From contig CANEEJ010000001.1 of NCBI GenBank assembly GCA_947426525.1, positions 23,617 to 87,616 of the forward strand: a DNA stretch of 64,000 nt, read 5' to 3'. Of this stretch, positions 35,926-38,631 are shown in pieces (positions within the stretch are counted from its first letter, which is position 1; every line of letters starts with the position of its first letter). Below the pieces are notes generated by a model. The model searched no databases. It worked only from the letters and a program-made list of their open reading frames with translations, and was not told where the DNA came from. Both the position numbers and the translations under genes were made by a program. This DNA is from an uncultured Clostridium sp. (lineage in GTDB: Bacteria > Bacillota > Clostridia > TANB77 > CAG-508).

Positions 35926-38550
35926 ATGGCAGAAAACACACAATATTCACCAATGATGCAAAAATATTTAGAAACCAAAGAAGAATACAAAGACTGTATC
36001 TTATTCTATCGATTAGGGGATTTCTATGAAATGTTCTTTGATGATGCCATTTTGGTAGCAAGAGAATTAGAAATAACCCTAACAGGAAAAGACTGTGGAC
36101 AAGCTGAAAGAGCACCAATGGCAGGAGTGCCACATCATGCAGCAGAAATGTATATTGCCAAATTAGTTAACAAAGGATATAAAGTAGCCATTTGTGAACA
36201 ATTAGAAAATCCAAAAGATGCAAAAGGAATTGTAAAAAGAGGTGTAATTCGTGTTGTTACACCAGGGACAGTAGTAGAAAGCAACATGCTAGAAGAGAGA
36301 AAAAATAACTACATCATGTCAATTTTTAAAACAGGTATTTACTTTGGTATCAGTGTTTGTGATATATCAACAGGAGAATTCTATTCTGCAGAAATTAAAG
36401 ATAACCACAACTTTCCAATGTTGTTAGATGAAATAGCAAGATATACACCATCTGAATTAGTGGTTAATTCTATGATGGCAGATTGCAGTGAAGAAATGAG
36501 CAAAATTAAAGAGAGATTTGAAAATGTGTATGTTACTAGATTTAATGACAAATTTTTTGAGCCAGAAGTAGAAAATTTAGATTTGAGGTTTTGTATTGTA
36601 GATAATAATGGAAAAACGATAGAAAACTTAAAAGAAAGAACGCTAGCAATTAGTTCCATTCATGCTCTAATAGAATATATGGAACAAACCCAAAAAACGA
36701 CATTAGACCATATCAATAAAATTGTTATATATCAATTATCTAGATATATGGCATTAGATATCAATGCAAGAAGAAATCTAGAAATTACAGAAAAATTAAG
36801 AGATAAATCAAAAAAAGGAACCCTATTATGGGTATTAGATAAAACATCAACCTCAATGGGAGGAAGAGCTTTAAGAAGATGGCTAAATGATCCACTTGTT
36901 GATGTGTTAGAAATTAATCGAAGATTAAATGCTGTAAAAGAGTTAAAAGATGATGTCATGTTAAGAGGAGATATCGTAGATAGTCTAAAAAAAGTATATG
37001 ACATAGAACGTCTAGCTGGTAAAATGGCATATGGAAATGCCAACGCTAGAGATATGGTAACTTTAAAAAATTCTTTATTAAAATTGCCAGAAGTAAAAAG
37101 ATGTTTAACCAATTGTAAAACAGATTTGTTAACAGATTTAGCGGAAAATTTAGATGAATTACAAGATATTTATGAATTAATTGATGGTGCCATTATAGAT
37201 GATCCACCAATGACAATTAAAGATGGAGGCATTATTAAATTAGGATATGATGAGGAAATTGATACCCTAAAAACAGCACAAACCGAAGGAAAAAATTGGC
37301 TAGTTCAATTAGAATTAGAAGAAAGAGAAAAAACAGGAATTAAGAATTTAAAAATAGGGTTTAACAAAGTATTTGGTTATTTTATTGAAGTAACAAAATC
37401 TTATTTAAATCAAGTGCCAGACCGTTTTGTTAGAAAGCAAACATTAACCAATGCAGAAAGATACATCACAGAAGAGTTGAAAAATTTAGAAAATCAAATT
37501 TTAGGAGCAGAAGAAAAGGTAGTAAACTTAGAATATAATGCTTTTGTCCAAATAAGAGATGAAATTGCTAAAAATGTAAAAAGATTACAAAAAACAAGTG
37601 AAGTTGTATCAAGCTTAGATGTTTTAACCTCTTTTGCAGAAGTAGCAGAAGACATGAATTACTGTATGCCAGAAGTTAATTCATCTGGTGTGATTGATAT
37701 CAAAAACGGAAGACATCCTGTCATAGAAAAAATATTAGGAGCAGGAAGTTTTGTTGAAAATGATACCTATTTAGATAAGCAAGAAAATCGATTATCTATT
37801 ATTACAGGACCAAACATGGCAGGTAAATCTACCTATATGAGACAAGTAGCTTTAATTACATTAATGGCGCAAGTAGGAAGTTTTGTACCAGCTGAATTTG
37901 CTAAAATTGGAGTAGTAGATAAAATCTTTACCAGAGTAGGAGCTTCTGACGATTTAAGTATGGGGCAAAGTACCTTTATGGTAGAAATGATGGAAGTAGC
38001 TACCATCTTAAAAGAAGCAACTGCTAACAGTTTAGTTATATTAGACGAAATTGGAAGAGGAACCTCAACTTATGATGGATTATCCATTGCCTGGGCAGTA
38101 GCAGAATTTATTAGCGACAAAGAAAAATGTGGAGCTAAGACACTATTTGCCACCCATTACCATGAACTAACAGAACTAGAAGACAAGCTAGAAGGAATTA
38201 AAAACTATTCTATTGCGGTAAAAGAAAAAGGAGAAGACATCATCTTCTTAAGAAAAATCATAAGAGGTGGAACAGACGAAAGTTATGGTATCCATGTAGC
38301 TCGTCTAGCAGGTGTACCAAAAGTCGTAACAAAAAAAGCAGACGAAATATTACGTACGTTAGAAAGAAAAAATATCTTAACTGGAAAAAAACAAGAAAAA
38401 CAAGACAAAAAACAAGTCGAAGGTCAATTTGATTTATACAATTATAAATTAGCCGAAATTGCTCACGAAGTAGACAAAATTAATTTAAACGAATTGACAC
38501 CAATCGATGCCTTAAATACTTTAGTAAGAATCAAAGAAAAAATGAAATGA
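35926..38550 (+). CDS. mutS: DNA mismatch repair protein MutS
   Basis: Walker A GPNMAGKST and the MutS domain order; the start ATG at 35926 follows a gagaaagatagat RBS. Confidence 0.95.
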   Translation: MAENTQYSPMMQKYLETKEEYKDCILFYRLGDFYEMFFDDAILVARELEITLTGKDCGQAERAPMAGVPHHAAEMYIAKLVNKGYKVAICEQLENPKDAKGIVKRGVIRVVTPGTVVESNMLEERKNNYIMSIFKTGIYFGISVCDISTGEFYSAEIKDNHNFPMLLDEIARYTPSELVVNSMMADCSEEMSKIKERFENVYVTRFNDKFFEPEVENLDLRFCIVDNNGKTIENLKERTLAISSIHALIEYMEQTQKTTLDHINKIVIYQLSRYMALDINARRNLEITEKLRDKSKKGTLLWVLDKTSTSMGGRALRRWLNDPLVDVLEINRRLNAVKELKDDVMLRGDIVDSLKKVYDIERLAGKMAYGNANARDMVTLKNSLLKLPEVKRCLTNCKTDLLTDLAENLDELQDIYELIDGAIIDDPPMTIKDGGIIKLGYDEEIDTLKTAQTEGKNWLVQLELEEREKTGIKNLKIGFNKVFGYFIEVTKSYLNQVPDRFVRKQTLTNAERYITEELKNLENQILGAEEKVVNLEYNAFVQIRDEIAKNVKRLQKTSEVVSSLDVLTSFAEVAEDMNYCMPEVNSSGVIDIKNGRHPVIEKILGAGSFVENDTYLDKQENRLSIITGPNMAGKSTYMRQVALITLMAQVGSFVPAEFAKIGVVDKIFTRVGASDDLSMGQSTFMVEMMEVATILKEATANSLVILDEIGRGTSTYDGLSIAWAVAEFISDKEKCGAKTLFATHYHELTELEDKLEGIKNYSIAVKEKGEDIIFLRKIIRGGTDESYGIHVARLAGVPKVVTKKADEILRTLERKNILTGKKQEKQDKKQVEGQFDLYNYKLAEIAHEVDKINLNELTPIDALNTLVRIKEKMK

Positions 38551-38618
38551 GACAGTTGGGGACAGGTCTTTTCTGTCTCATTTGAGACAAAAAAGACCTG
38601 TCCCCAACTGTCTCAAAA
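38545..38618. repeat. composite A-family element made of two inverted GGGGACAGGTC hairpins. It is a near-perfect palindrome of about 55 bp, and its 3' end supplies the RBS of the next gene.
   Basis: atgagacagttggggacaggtcttttctgtctcat | ttgagacaaaaaagacctgtccccaactgtctcaaaaggag. The mutS TGA stop lies in the left arm. Confidence 0.85.
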
Positions 38619-38631
38619 GGAGAAATGTGAA

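What the first reader, a model, noticed from the sequence alone, without database searches (positions are those of the whole stretch)
38545..38627. GGGAC-core nested palindromic elements (A-family) inserted exactly at gene 3' ends or between cistrons, which donate stop codons and ribosome-binding sites
At least eight copies of a hairpin element occur in the window, at 1137, 31780, 38545, 40548, 51671, 51748, 60281 and 60310. Each has the form aatgagac-(N)-GGGGACAGGTC-(N)-gtctcatt, with perfect inverted arms and a GC-rich core, inside a genome that is about 30% GC.

Three copies are pairs arranged head-to-head, forming super-palindromes of about 55 bp or a MITE-like structure of about 115 bp (51671-51785, whose two halves are perfect reverse complements).

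- **Stop codons.** In six genes the stop codon is supplied by the element itself. The TGA inside aaTGAgac ends mutS, cysE, the rluA-like gene and the VanW gene; a TAG inside the element ends the NuoE-like gene; and the B-family copy supplies the TGA of the NuoF-like gene.
- **Ribosome-binding sites.** In two places (38618, 60352) the element ends ...gtctcaaaaggag, which provides the SD of the downstream gene (the ECF S component and the NuoF-like gene).
- **Likely roles.** The copies at 1137, 40548 and 31780 are followed by T-runs and probably act as terminators. The composite copies inside the mutS-ECF and hydC-hydB operons would form stems of at least 25 bp within polycistronic mRNA, which could be RNase III processing or stability sites that set cistron stoichiometry.
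Basis: seen in the sequence. Interest (0 to 1): 0.75.

Follow-up and report, generated by a model that had tools for sequence, protein, structure and literature searches.

The report
REPIN-like hairpin repeats with cognate transposase
The GC-rich hairpins are copies of a small non-coding mobile element of the REP/REPIN kind, and in related genomes the same hairpins flank a single-copy tyrosine (HUH) transposase gene; the feature is real and tidy, but it is a known kind of element found in a new lineage of uncultured gut Clostridia.

Summary
Nine 32-33-nt units (TGAGACA-nn-GGGGACAGGTCTT-nnn-TGTCTCA, usually followed by TTTT) lie at six sites. They form three singlets, one full 114-nt inverted doublet and two compact doublets of 72-74 nt. 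They belong to a wider set of hairpins with a GGGAC core in the loop.

In about 80 loci from related MAGs the usual form is a +/- inverted doublet of roughly 105 nt. Its two arms match each other even at positions that vary between copies, and it has no target-site duplication. Orthologous sites in related species are empty, or hold a different element.

In relatives the same hairpins flank, in inverted orientation, one gene lying between recD2 and a comFC-like gene. That gene encodes a Y1/HUH transposase with a C-terminal HTH. Its best sequence and fold match is the E. coli REP-associated transposase (4ER8). The core matches the published GGGGWSAS motif of TIRYT repeats.

So this is a REPIN/RAYT-type (TIRtron-type) system. 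The stop-codon overlaps are real and systematic, but empty sites show a native TAA at the same codon. The "donated" ribosome-binding sites are host sequence. Terminator and RNase III roles are untested. It is a new member of a known kind.

The parts
38545..38618 (.). A-family compact inverted doublet. Its units are 38548-38580(+) and 38583-38615(-), separated by only TT. It lies between mutS and folT (ECF S component), and the mutS stop TGA (38548-50) is the unit's first three bases.
   Evidence: (I13: 33 nt, 97% complementary). The RNA fold is -57.5 kcal/mol, z = -12.4. The orthologous site is empty in L087 and L088 and holds a different element in L086.
60279..60350 (.). A-family compact inverted doublet between the NuoE-like and NuoF-like genes. 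Its units are 60282-60313(+) and 60316-60347(-). The NuoE-like stop TAG (60290-92) lies inside the unit.
   Evidence: The orthologous doublets have core-to-core spacing of 38 nt here, 54 nt in L038 and 115 nt in L068. The fold is -41.9 kcal/mol, z = -8.9.
51672..51785 (.). A-family full-length doublet (REPIN-like). Its units are 51675-51706(+) and 51750-51781(-), with a 43-nt AT-rich spacer. Both convergent genes end in its terminal TGAs.
   Evidence: (I1). The arms are identical 32-mers. The fold is -72.7 kcal/mol, z = -15.7. The orthologous copy in sister-species locus L020 has an 11-nt difference at the left boundary.
40548..40587 (+). A-family singlet followed by a T-run. It begins right after the TAA of the CbiQ/EcfT gene, and its far end supplies the TGA of the convergent DUF1836 gene. 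Its 33-mer is identical to unit 38548-38580.
   Evidence: The terminator-like scan flags 40563-40583. In sister-species locus L026 the orthologous site holds a full doublet nested in another palindrome.
1139..1177 (-). A-family singlet between thioredoxin (+) and a frameshifted rluA-like gene (-). The last frame of the rluA-like gene ends at the unit's TGA.
   Evidence: The fold is -14.2 kcal/mol, z = -5.7.
31780..31817 (-). A-family singlet downstream of a frameshifted VanW-like gene (-) and upstream of a D-Ala-D-Ala carboxypeptidase gene (-). The last frame of the VanW-like gene ends at the unit's TGA.
10789..10897 (.). B-family doublet (GATGTTTTTT-GGGACGGGGTC-AAAAAACATC, twice, inverted). 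It lies between a DUF1653 ORF and a class I aminoacyl-tRNA synthetase gene, downstream of a T-box leader.
   Evidence: (D6, I6). The fold is -64 kcal/mol, z = -14.2.
62218..62332 (.). B-family doublet between the NuoF-like gene and the [FeFe]-hydrogenase large-subunit gene. The NuoF-like stop TGA (62219-21) lies in its first arm, and a native-looking TAAGGAGG follows its last arm.
   Evidence: (I11). The site is empty in L068 (aatTAAGGAGG), and L038 has TAA + ac + B. The fold is -57.4 kcal/mol.
51045..51077 (+). B'-type singlet (ATGATTTT-GGGGACGGAGGAA-AAAATCAT). It overlaps the TAA stop of an MgtC-family gene.
   Evidence: (D6).
27823..27856 (+). C-family singlet (ATGGTCA-AATTGGGACAGGCATAACA-TGACCAT).
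   Evidence: (D12).
42938..42971 (+). C-family singlet between convergent genes for an AMP-binding enzyme and a DUF1064 protein.
   Evidence: (D12).
25700..25775 (-). Two directly repeated C-like cores (GGGACAGGC and GGGACAGGTC) in one intergenic gap.
22319..22377 (+). A D-type hairpin (AAGGAG-TAATAGGGACGTTTCCTCTTG-CTCCTT, 22319-22351) followed by the remnant TGAGAAATCTATTGTCTC (22360-22377). Sister-species locus L050 has a full A doublet at this position.

Best explanation
The hairpins are non-autonomous REP/REPIN-type elements.

**The unit.** It has polarity: 5'-TGAGACA, 2-3 variable nt, GGGGACAGGTCTT, 3 variable nt, TGTCTCA, TTTT-3'.

**The replicating form.** This is most likely the inverted doublet of about 105 nt: a unit, an AT-rich spacer and the reverse-complement unit. 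As a single strand it folds into one long hairpin. Singlets and compact doublets are decay products formed by deletion of the centre.

**The likely mobilising enzyme.** It is a single-copy, vertically inherited Y1/HUH transposase of the RAYT/TIRYT class, with an HUH motif, a catalytic Tyr and a C-terminal HTH. Its gene lies between recD2 and a comFC-like gene, flanked by the same units in inverted orientation, in the place where a doublet has its spacer. By analogy with TnpA(REP) and IS200/IS605 enzymes, it would act in trans on single-stranded DNA hairpins that carry the conserved GGGGAC(A/G)G tag, cutting and rejoining without a target duplication.

**Where copies survive.** They persist only where they do no harm: just after, or overlapping, stop codons and between cistrons. 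Because both ends read TGA inward, a copy can overlap or replace a stop codon without changing the protein.

**Side effects on mRNA.** A hairpin followed by a U-run acting as a terminator, or a stable 3' hairpin, are plausible secondary consequences. They are not the reason the family exists.

**Shown:**
- a repeat family with a defined doublet architecture
- arm symmetry within doublets
- no target-site duplication
- presence/absence differences between related species
- linkage to the transposase gene in relatives, with conserved synteny

**Inferred:**
- mobilisation by that enzyme
- the single-stranded DNA mechanism
- any effect on RNA
For: **Family and architecture.**
I counted about 55-63 matches in one sister-species MAG (CAMNWO01) from the table.
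- Neighbouring cores are oriented +- 57 times, -+ 2, ++ 10 and -- 11, with a modal core-to-core spacing of 76-77 nt.
- The arms of a doublet are identical in 21 of 40 cases, against 1.7% for arms paired between different doublets.
- Doublets fold at -42 to -73 kcal/mol, z = -9 to -16.

**Insertion behaviour.**
- The target-site-duplication length distribution equals the shuffled null.
- The mutS-folT junction is empty in L087 and L088.
- The nuoF 3' end is empty of B in L068.
- Where L050 has a full doublet, the window has only a remnant.
- At the nuoE/F junction the spacing series is 115, 54 and 38 nt.

**Transposase.**
- ORFs of 230-277 aa are flanked by (+) and (-) A units in L017, L018, L030 and L083/84. 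In L031 and L085 the upstream side shows only a (-) unit at the contig start.
- Pfam Y1_Tnp scores 45.7 bits (cut-off 23), with Fis/resolvase-type HTH matches at the C-terminus.
- The best NCBIfam hit is the REP-associated tyrosine transposase model.
- H60, H62 and Y120 are invariant in 30 homologues.
- A profile against the PDB gives 4ER8 TnpA(REP) as best hit, E = 0.003.
- The AlphaFold2 model has pLDDT 86.6. Its top Foldseek hit in the PDB is 4er8_A (E = 1.2e-6, TM-score normalised to the target 0.67), ahead of the IS608, ISDra2 and IS200 TnpA structures.
- The recD2 - gene - PRTase (comFC-like) order recurs in L083, L084, L090 and L091; L085 shows the gene - PRTase half.
- In homologues that are 61-62% identical, the flanking inverted hairpins keep the GGGGAC core but have different stems.

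**Literature.**
- RAYT-like genes with C-terminal HTH (TIRYTs, subclass 2.1) are flanked by inverted repeats sharing GGGGWSAS, some of them amplified as singles, dimers or clusters (PMC3733652; PMC6006769). GGGGACAG fits that motif.
Against: - The transposase gene is not in the 64-kb window (tblastn), and I could not show that it is in this organism's genome.
- No activity data exist. Mobilisation is inferred from linkage only.
- The protein scores 66.7 bits, below NCBIfam's 80-bit cut-off for REP_Tyr_transpos.
- The canonical GTAG tag is not conserved: positions 8-10 of the unit vary.
- Several subfamilies (B, C, D) share only the GGGAC core, and I found no transposase gene flanked by them.
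- About a quarter of doublets (10 of 40 with at least 6 bp of outward complementarity) lie exactly at the centre of an older palindrome. A simple peel-and-paste model does not predict this.
- Singlets are biased 20:8 towards the sense orientation, which hints at some selection at the RNA level.
Confidence: 0.82

Rival explanations
1. These are host-selected RNA elements. The hairpins exist because they act as intrinsic terminators, 3' stabilisers or RNase III sites that set cistron stoichiometry.
For: - The unit carries a T-run on its 3' side: the mirrored flank is 76-91% A in doublets and 66-82% A in singlets.
- Singlets are sense to the upstream gene 20 times and antisense 8 times, p = 0.036.
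- 40563-40583 is flagged as terminator-like.
- Both operon-internal doublets (38545, 60279) have lost the T-run and spacer, whereas the CASUIT orthologue keeps them.
- The long stems of 33 bp or more would be RNase III substrates.
Against: - Orthologous junctions in close relatives are empty or hold a different element, while the flanking genes are unchanged.
- Copies nest inside one another.
- The same units flank a transposase gene.
- Symmetry between the arms of a doublet has no obvious use for a simple terminator.
- The local stem has a 14-18-nt loop, which is a poor terminator geometry.
- There are no transcript data.
Confidence: 0.1
2. These are classical MITEs: deletion derivatives of a DDE-type insertion sequence, mobilised through their terminal inverted repeats.
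For: The doublet has a size of about 105 nt, terminal inverted repeats and an AT-rich centre, so it looks MITE-like.
Against: - There is no target-site duplication beyond chance.
- The only gene found framed by the units is a Y1/HUH enzyme.
- Each 'TIR' is itself a hairpin, and singlets are common.
Confidence: 0.03
3. These are binding or uptake sites: the conserved GGGAC(A/G)G core is a recognition sequence for a host DNA-binding protein (a DUS/USS-like uptake signal, a nucleoid protein or a restriction-related motif) that happens to lie in terminator hairpins.
For: - The core is conserved across subfamilies with unrelated stems.
- The transposase-like gene lies next to the competence-associated genes recD2 and comFC.
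- Uptake sequences in Neisseria often lie as inverted pairs in terminators (general knowledge).
Against: - The conserved part is far longer than a simple site, about 20 of 32 positions.
- The doublet architecture, nesting and presence/absence turnover are typical of mobile DNA.
- The core matches the motif already described next to TIRYT genes.
Confidence: 0.05

Closest known systems
REPIN-RAYT systems of Pseudomonas and Enterobacteria (Bertels & Rainey 2011, PMC3116915; Bertels et al. 2017, PMC5581495) and E. coli REP/BIME with TnpA(REP) (PDB 4ER8)
   Same: - Short extragenic palindromic units are organised as inverted doublets with a spacer that fold into one long hairpin.
- Singlets occur as remnants.
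- There is no target duplication.
- The same units flank a single-copy, syntenic (vertically inherited) HUH/Y1 transposase gene.
- The enzyme's best sequence and fold match is 4ER8.
   Different: - There is no conserved GTAG tag. The conserved tag is GGGGACAG, inside the loop of the local hairpin.
- The enzyme is longer (about 250 aa), carries a C-terminal HTH, and falls below the NCBIfam RAYT cut-off.
- The host is a low-GC uncultured Clostridia lineage. PMC5581495 links abundant REPs only to Group 2/3 RAYTs.
- Copies frequently nest inside one another, and their ends systematically overlap stop codons.
TIRtrons / TIRYTs (Di Nocera et al. 2013, PMC3733652), equivalent to TnpA(REP) subclass 2.1 (Quentin et al. 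2018, PMC6006769)
   Same: - A RAYT-like Y1 enzyme with a C-terminal HTH.
- The gene is flanked by inverted repeats sharing GGGGWSAS, and GGGGACAG fits.
- In some genomes the repeats are amplified as singles, dimers or clusters.
   Different: - The published examples named in the passages read are Stenotrophomonas and Acidobacteria, among others. No Firmicutes are mentioned in the text searched.
- TIR families were described as only moderately abundant, and subclass 2.1 was reported to have no REP-like sequences nearby.
- Here the repeats are REP-like hairpins at high density: about 20 GGGAC-loop hairpins in 64 kb.
- The HTH matches Pfam HTH_8/HTH_7 rather than HTH_23, HTH_28 or Bac_DnaA_C.
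IS200/IS605 insertion sequences and their miniature derivatives (PATEs)
   Same: - HUH/Y1 chemistry.
- Subterminal hairpins.
- No target-site duplication.
- Non-autonomous palindromic derivatives.
   Different: - Here the transposase gene is single-copy at a fixed chromosomal locus rather than multi-copy.
- The NCBIfam IS200 model scores only 25.3 bits (cut-off 55).
- No tnpB was seen next to it.
Bacterial MITEs at gene ends (Correia/NEMIS in Neisseria, RUP and BOX in S. pneumoniae, ERIC)
   Same: - Elements of about 100 nt with inverted ends in intergenic regions.
- They are co-transcribed with flanking genes and can supply or alter expression signals.
   Different: Those elements have DDE-type TIRs and target duplications (for example TA for Correia elements; general knowledge). 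This family has none and is tied to a Y1 enzyme.

Membership tests
REP / REPIN | A short (20-40 nt) imperfect palindrome, present in many copies, in extragenic positions | tested here: met
   - 9 A units in the window, all intergenic or overlapping gene ends.
- 128 non-redundant units in the fetched loci.
- 81+ loci in public genomes.
REP / REPIN | Two units in inverted orientation, separated by a short spacer, able to form one long hairpin and evolving in concert | tested here: met
   - +- pairs 57 against -+ 2.
- Arms identical in 21 of 40 doublets, against 1.7% for random pairs.
- Folds of -42 to -73 kcal/mol.
REP / REPIN | A conserved GTAG (or CGTC) tag at one end of the palindrome | tested here: not met
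   Positions 8-10, just 5' of the core, vary: GTAG in some copies (60279, and the units next to the transposase gene in L030 and L017), and GTGG, AAGG or AAAG in most. The conserved tag is GGGGACAG instead.
REP / REPIN | The same units flank a single-copy RAYT gene in the same genome | tested here: inconclusive
   This is met in related MAGs: L017, L018, L030 and L083/84 have units on both sides, while L031 and L085 are cut at the contig start. It includes the sister species at about 88-90% nucleotide identity. The gene is absent from the window, and the rest of this genome was not available.
RAYT (REP-associated tyrosine transposase, NCBIfam NF047646) | An HUH motif, a catalytic tyrosine and the Y1_Tnp fold | tested here: met
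   - Invariant H60, H62 and Y120.
- PF01797 at 45.7 bits, above the cut-off of 23.
- Foldseek top hit 4er8_A, E = 1.2e-6.
RAYT (REP-associated tyrosine transposase, NCBIfam NF047646) | A score above the curated equivalog cut-off | tested here: not met
   66.7 bits against a cut-off of 80. It is the best-scoring family, ahead of IS200 at 25.3 bits.
TIRYT / TnpA(REP) subclass 2.1 | A RAYT-like core plus a C-terminal helix-turn-helix domain | tested here: met
   HTH_8 at 28.5 bits and HTH_7 at 24.2 bits, on residues 253-275. The model has a helical C-terminal half. The Pfam HTH families differ from those named in PMC6006769.
TIRYT / TnpA(REP) subclass 2.1 | Flanking inverted repeats that share GGGGWSAS | tested here: met
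   - GGGGACAG at one or both flanks in L017, L030 and L083, and in the dispersed units.
- L090 has GGGGACAC and GGGGACAG.
- L091 has GGGGACGG, one mismatch to the motif.
- The motif is taken from PMC3733652.
MITE of a DDE transposon | Direct target-site duplication flanking the element | tested here: not met
   The lengths of flanking direct repeats are no different from shuffled flank pairs.
IS200/IS605 insertion sequence | A multi-copy autonomous element that carries its own tnpA (with or without tnpB) | tested here: not met
   - One A-flanked copy per MAG, at a fixed recD2-comFC position.
- No tnpB among the neighbouring genes.
- The IS200 model scores 25.3 bits, below its cut-off of 55.
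Intrinsic (Rho-independent) terminator | A GC-rich hairpin immediately followed by a U-run, producing transcript 3' ends | tested here: inconclusive
   - A T-run is part of the unit.
- Only one copy in the scanned 30-45 kb stretch passes the simple scan, and through an alternative pairing of GGGACAG with CTGTCTC.
- Transcript ends cannot be tested with these tools.
Known RNA families (Rfam 15) | A match at gathering score | tested here: not met
   The only hit in the window is the T-box at 10182-10418.

The most novel reading that the evidence does not exclude
HTH-bearing subclass 2.1 RAYT-like enzymes (TIRYTs) have been regarded as poorly productive or not REP-associated. In this reading they drive a dense, long-lived REPIN-type population in a lineage of small-genome gut Clostridia, using GGGGACAG as the recognition tag.

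The family would also have two unusual targeting properties:
- Its termini read TGA inward on both strands, so it can land on or replace stop codons in zero-length intergenic gaps.
- New copies enter the exact symmetry centre of existing palindromes, building nested 'Russian-doll' elements.
Probability: 0.3. Interest if true: 0.6.

Novelty: new member of a known kind. Interest (0 to 1): 0.42.

Why it matters
**Annotation of these MAGs.** The finding explains a conspicuous feature of these small, AT-rich gut genomes: GC-rich hairpins at many gene ends. It also warns annotators that stop codons, C-terminal tails and apparent terminators here often belong to a mobile repeat.

**The REPIN-RAYT field.** It adds a Firmicutes/Clostridia case in which the HTH-bearing RAYT-like class (TIRYT, subclass 2.1) is tied to an abundant, hairpin-shaped, doublet-forming repeat family with a clear tag, GGGGACAG. 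That offers a simple substrate for biochemical tests of how this class recognises DNA.

**Possible new biology.** The stop-codon overlap and the nesting at palindrome centres could reveal target rules, if they prove to be insertion preferences rather than survivorship.

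Tried and rejected
- **Literature search by motif string** (GGGACAGG) returned only unrelated eukaryotic papers.
- **Single-sequence phmmer of the transposase against the PDB** found nothing. A 30-sequence profile was needed.
- **Linking the window's genome to a transposase copy failed.** The exact look-up of FolT returned only a 971-nt Logan contig, P0007 was not on record, and the cluster look-up gave no accessions.
- **An interim misreading, now corrected.** Pfam showed that cysE is the hexapeptide ORF ending at 51677, so the claim is right.
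- **Local-hairpin covariation.** Unit positions 8-25 and 9-24 pair no more often than shuffles do. The only evidence for structure is the invariant 7-bp stem and the concerted arms of doublets.
- **A fixed insertion point inside the outer unit of nested copies** was rejected. The junction lies anywhere from 0 to more than 8 nt after the core, but always at the symmetry centre.
- **T|A (stop-codon T|AA) as a general target.** It fits mutS-folT: removing GAGAC...GTCTC restores ATG AAA TAA AAGGAG. It does not fit the 51675 doublet (reasoned), so it is left open.
- **Rfam at gathering threshold** found no known RNA family at any copy.

Full report

Yes. Reading 38400-38760 shows AAATGAGACAGTTGGGGACAGGTCTTTTCTGTCTCATTTGAGACAAAAAAGACCTGTCCCCAACTGTCTCAAAAGGAG between the end of a long ORF and the next start codon.

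GGGGACAGGTC with up to 2 mismatches occurs 11 times, against 2.2 expected from shuffles.

The window is about 30% GC with a strong purine skew on the + strand.

- GGGACRGG occurs 19 times, against 0.4 expected.
- 20 of 38 GGGAC sites lie in the loop of a perfect stem of at least 6 bp. Seven control pentamers of equal composition that do not overlap the core give 1-3 of 5-56.
- Subfamilies with unrelated stems share the core: B (GATGTTTTTT/AAAAAACATC), B', C (ATGGTCA/TGACCAT) and D (AAGGAG/CTCCTT).

Two corrections to the description:
- The compact 'super-palindromes' are 72-74 nt, not about 55.
- The 51672-51785 doublet does have perfectly complementary 32-nt units.

**2. What is around the copies?**

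Pfam assigns the neighbouring genes as follows:

| Window position | Gene |
|---|---|
| 35872-38550 | MutS |
| 38632-39168 | ECF S component; named folate-family by sources |
| 39982-40548 | CbiQ/EcfT |
| 40582-41085(-) | DUF1836 |
| 51339-51677 | hexapeptide (cysE-like) fragment |
| 59807-60292 | NuoE-like |
| 60362-62221 | NuoF-like |
| from 62348 | [FeFe]-hydrogenase large subunit |
| 821-1129 | thioredoxin |
| 1528-2064(-) | rluA-like |
| 32032-32574(-) | VanW-like |

The stop-codon claims are correct:
- The terminal TGA of an A unit ends mutS, the cysE fragment, the last frames of the frameshifted rluA-like and VanW-like genes, and also DUF1836 and ORF 51779-52885(-).
- A TAG inside the unit ends the NuoE-like gene.
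- The first arm of a B doublet supplies the TGA of the NuoF-like gene.

**3. The family outside the window**

Nearly all are uncultured gut 'Clostridium sp.' or 'Clostridia bacterium' MAGs. I counted about 55-63 matches in one MAG (CAMNWO01) from that table. Over shared genes CAMNWO01 is 80-90% identical to the window at the nucleotide level (mostly 86-90%), so it is a sister species.

Across these loci and the window:
- Neighbouring cores are oriented +- 57 times and -+ twice, with a modal core-to-core spacing of 76-77 nt.
- The usual element is therefore an inverted doublet of about 105 nt: unit, TTTT, AT-rich spacer, AAAA, reverse-complement unit.
- The T-run belongs to the unit. The spacer-side flank, read towards the unit, is 76-91% A in doublets and 66-82% A in singlets. 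The outer flanks are merely AT-rich.

Within the 32-nt unit, only positions 8-9 and 22-25 vary freely, with minor variation at position 10.
- These positions do not covary within a unit.
- They match between the two arms of a doublet. Arms are identical in 21 of 40 doublets, against 1.7% of arm pairs taken from different doublets.

As single strands the doublets fold into one long hairpin, at -42 to -73 kcal/mol and z = -9 to -16.

There is no target-site duplication beyond chance.

**4. Are they insertions?**

Yes. Orthologous junctions differ between relatives.

*mutS-folT junction:*
- Two relatives (L087 and L088; FolT 84% and 80% identical) have no element. Their mutS ends ...KEKMK-TAA at the same codon as in the window.
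- The sister species (L086) has a different nested GGGAC element behind a native TAA. It is followed by the same AAAAGGAGAAA that follows the A doublet in the window.

*nuoF 3' end:*
- L068 reads aatTAAGGAGG with no B element.
- L038 has TAA + ac + B doublet.
- The window has the B doublet starting at the stop codon, with TAAGGAGG retained after it.

*Other sites:*
- Where the sister species has a full doublet (L050), the window keeps only TGAGAAATCTATTGTCTC.
- The nuoE/F doublet is orthologous in three species, with core-to-core spacing of 115, 54 and 38 nt. The compact forms are therefore centre-deleted doublets.
- At 40548 the window has a singlet, while the sister species has a doublet nested in another palindrome.

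**5. The linked gene**

I looked for ORFs framed by a (+) and a (-) unit. This found one conserved protein of 230-277 aa in four MAGs, and tblastn confirmed one such copy in each of L017, L018, L030 and L031. The gene is absent from the window. More examples came from a protein search (more than 1,400 homologues) and from contig look-ups.

Properties of the protein:
- It carries Pfam Y1_Tnp at 45.7 bits (cut-off 23) and a Fis/resolvase-type HTH at the C-terminus.
- Its best NCBIfam model is the REP-associated tyrosine transposase, at 66.7 bits. That is below the 80-bit cut-off but ahead of IS200 at 25.3 bits.
- H60, H62 (the HUH motif) and Y120 (in KYIHMNPVKA) are invariant in 30 homologues.
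- A profile of these sequences hits 4ER8, the E. coli TnpA(REP), as its best PDB sequence (E = 0.003).
- An AlphaFold2 model (pLDDT 86.6) has 4er8_A as its top Foldseek match (E = 1.2e-6), ahead of IS608, ISDra2 and IS200 TnpA.

Genomic position:
- The gene lies between recD2 (yrrC) and a phosphoribosyltransferase (comFC-like) gene in L083, L084, L090 and L091. L085 shows the gene followed by the PRTase gene. The same downstream coding sequence (LIYPP.CG.CGK) follows the gene in L017, L018, L030 and L031. This points to a single-copy, vertically inherited locus.
- In homologues that are 61-62% identical, the flanking inverted hairpins keep GGGGAC(A/G) but have other stems. This marks the core as the likely recognition tag.
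- The gene occupies the place of the spacer in a doublet: (+) unit, gene, (-) unit.

**6. What it is and how it most likely works**

This is the REP/REPIN-RAYT arrangement: a non-autonomous palindromic doublet that probably derives from the ends of a domesticated Y1/HUH transposase locus and is mobilised in trans.

| Status | Points |
|---|---|
| Shown | family, architecture, concerted arms, lack of target-site duplication, turnover at orthologous sites, linkage and synteny in relatives |
| Inferred | that this enzyme moves the elements; that it acts on single-stranded hairpins, as TnpA(REP) and IS200/IS605 enzymes do; that singlets and compact doublets are decay products |

*Survival only at gene ends.* This explains the positions of the copies. 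At 27 element ends an ORF of at least 80 codons stops exactly at the terminal TGA, against 1-3 at any neighbouring offset. Because both ends read TGA inward, an element can overlap or replace a stop codon. The empty sites show that the protein end is unchanged, so 'donation' is nominal.

*Ribosome-binding sites are not part of the element.* Only 12 of 80 outward flanks have GGAG/GAGG within 12 nt, and at variable distance. The mutS-folT SD is shared with a species that carries a different element.

*RNA effects are plausible but untested.*
- The unit ends in a T-run.
- Singlets are sense to the upstream gene 20 times and antisense 8 times (p = 0.036).
- One copy passes the simple terminator scan, through an alternative pairing of GGGACAG with CTGTCTC.
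- The two operon-internal doublets have lost the T-run and spacer. That is what selection against termination inside operons would produce.

**7. Comparison with what is known**

- Bertels et al. (PMC5581495) link abundant REPs only to Group 2/3 RAYTs, and mention Group 1 in Clostridia.
- Di Nocera et al. (PMC3733652) describe RAYT-like 'TIRYT' genes flanked by inverted repeats that share GGGGWSAS. Some of these repeats are amplified as singles, dimers or clusters.
- Quentin et al. (PMC6006769) place most TIRYTs in subclass 2.1, with a C-terminal HTH. They report no REP-like sequences nearby.

GGGGACAG fits GGGGWSAS, and the protein has the HTH. The system is therefore best filed as a TIRtron/REPIN-type family.

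It fails the GTAG-tag criterion of canonical REPs and the NCBIfam equivalog cut-off. It is not a DDE MITE, not an IS200/IS605 copy, and not a known Rfam family.

**8. Novelty and verdict**

This is a real and well-defined feature, and a new member of a known kind. Four points go beyond the textbook case:
- the host lineage and the density of copies;
- the hairpin-shaped units and REPIN-like doublets for an HTH-bearing RAYT-like class;
- the systematic overlap with stop codons;
- the nesting of doublets at the exact centre of older palindromes. 10 of 40 doublets have at least 6 bp of outward complementarity, against 0.6% in the null (sequences). I cannot explain this.

Its functional reading (donated RBS, RNase III sites that set stoichiometry) is unsupported or untested. 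Interest is about 0.4.

Noticed in passing
L021 2984-3089, L082 3278-3382, L007 3339-3445, L053 3193-3289, L062 6630-6732, L045 3663-3764, L039 7430-7535, L026 6588-6692; also L086 about 1240-1490: Many doublets lie exactly at the symmetry centre of an older, more degenerate doublet or hairpin ('Russian-doll' nesting). 10 of 40 have at least 6 bp of outward complementarity, against 0.6% in the null. The outer copy lacks its own inner stems and spacer. The junction is at a variable distance from the outer core but is always central. Possible causes are apex-directed insertion, replacement, or templated extension of the palindrome.
   Followed up: partly
window 38548-38580 and 40552-40584: Two identical 33-nt A units in direct orientation bracket the folT-ecfA-ecfT operon. 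The 50-nt stretches that include their upstream flanks are 92% identical (D5). This may reflect a recent copy, or it may be a substrate for deletion of the operon.
   Followed up: no
window 1178-2064(-), 31815-32574(-), 51149-51677(+), 6922-8119(+): Several genes are split by apparent frameshifts: rluA-like (two shifts), VanW-like (one), the cysE-like gene (two overlapping ORFs) and the first of two acetate-kinase-like genes (ORFs 6922-7641 and 7631-8119). This suggests homopolymer errors in the assembly or real pseudogenes, and it affects any statement about which stop codon a gene uses.
   Followed up: partly
L027 2709-3440: A 41%-identical paralogue of the transposase lies between dnaB and tilS in the sister-species MAG. 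It is flanked by an unrelated short inverted repeat (GGCAACTTAACAAC / GTTGTTAAGTTGC), not by GGGAC hairpins.
   Followed up: partly
window 10182-10418 and 10537-14056: A T-box leader (Rfam, 94.2 bits) is followed by a DUF1653 ORF, then the B doublet (-64 kcal/mol), and only then a 1048-aa class I aminoacyl-tRNA synthetase gene. A very stable hairpin therefore lies between the riboswitch and the synthetase gene.
   Followed up: no
L083 1-110: Three direct copies of a C-type unit (GTGCCTGTCCCAGATTAGCCA) occur at 35-36-nt spacing. This is a small tandem cluster, far too short-spaced for CRISPR.
   Followed up: no
window 6905-8119 vs 8180-9387: A tandem duplication of acetate/butyrate-kinase-like genes, 72-82% identical at the nucleotide level (repeats D2, D4 and D7, offset 1275 nt).
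   Followed up: no
window 9608-9807: A 21-nt tandem repeat (about 9 copies) inside ORF 9463-10116 encodes a heptad-like peptide repeat (..NEKRWEE/NDKRWEQ..).
   Followed up: no
window 6720-6846: A 52-nt inverted repeat (83% complementary, 23-nt gap) lies between ORF 5730-6722 and the acetate-kinase-like genes. It is unrelated to the GGGAC family.
   Followed up: no
window 51664-51677 vs L020 (rc) about 6095-6110: At the left boundary of the orthologous full doublet, the sister species lacks 11 nt (taaataagaaa). Its cysE-like frame would therefore read about 22 codons into the element before a TAG, so element-encoded C-terminal tails differ between close species.
   Followed up: partly
window 17729-17756 and 785-803: Two further small GGGACG-core palindromes (GGGATTT-GGGGACGTCCC-TTAAAATCCC and TTTAAGGGACGTCCTTAAA) may be additional decayed subfamily members.
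   Followed up: no
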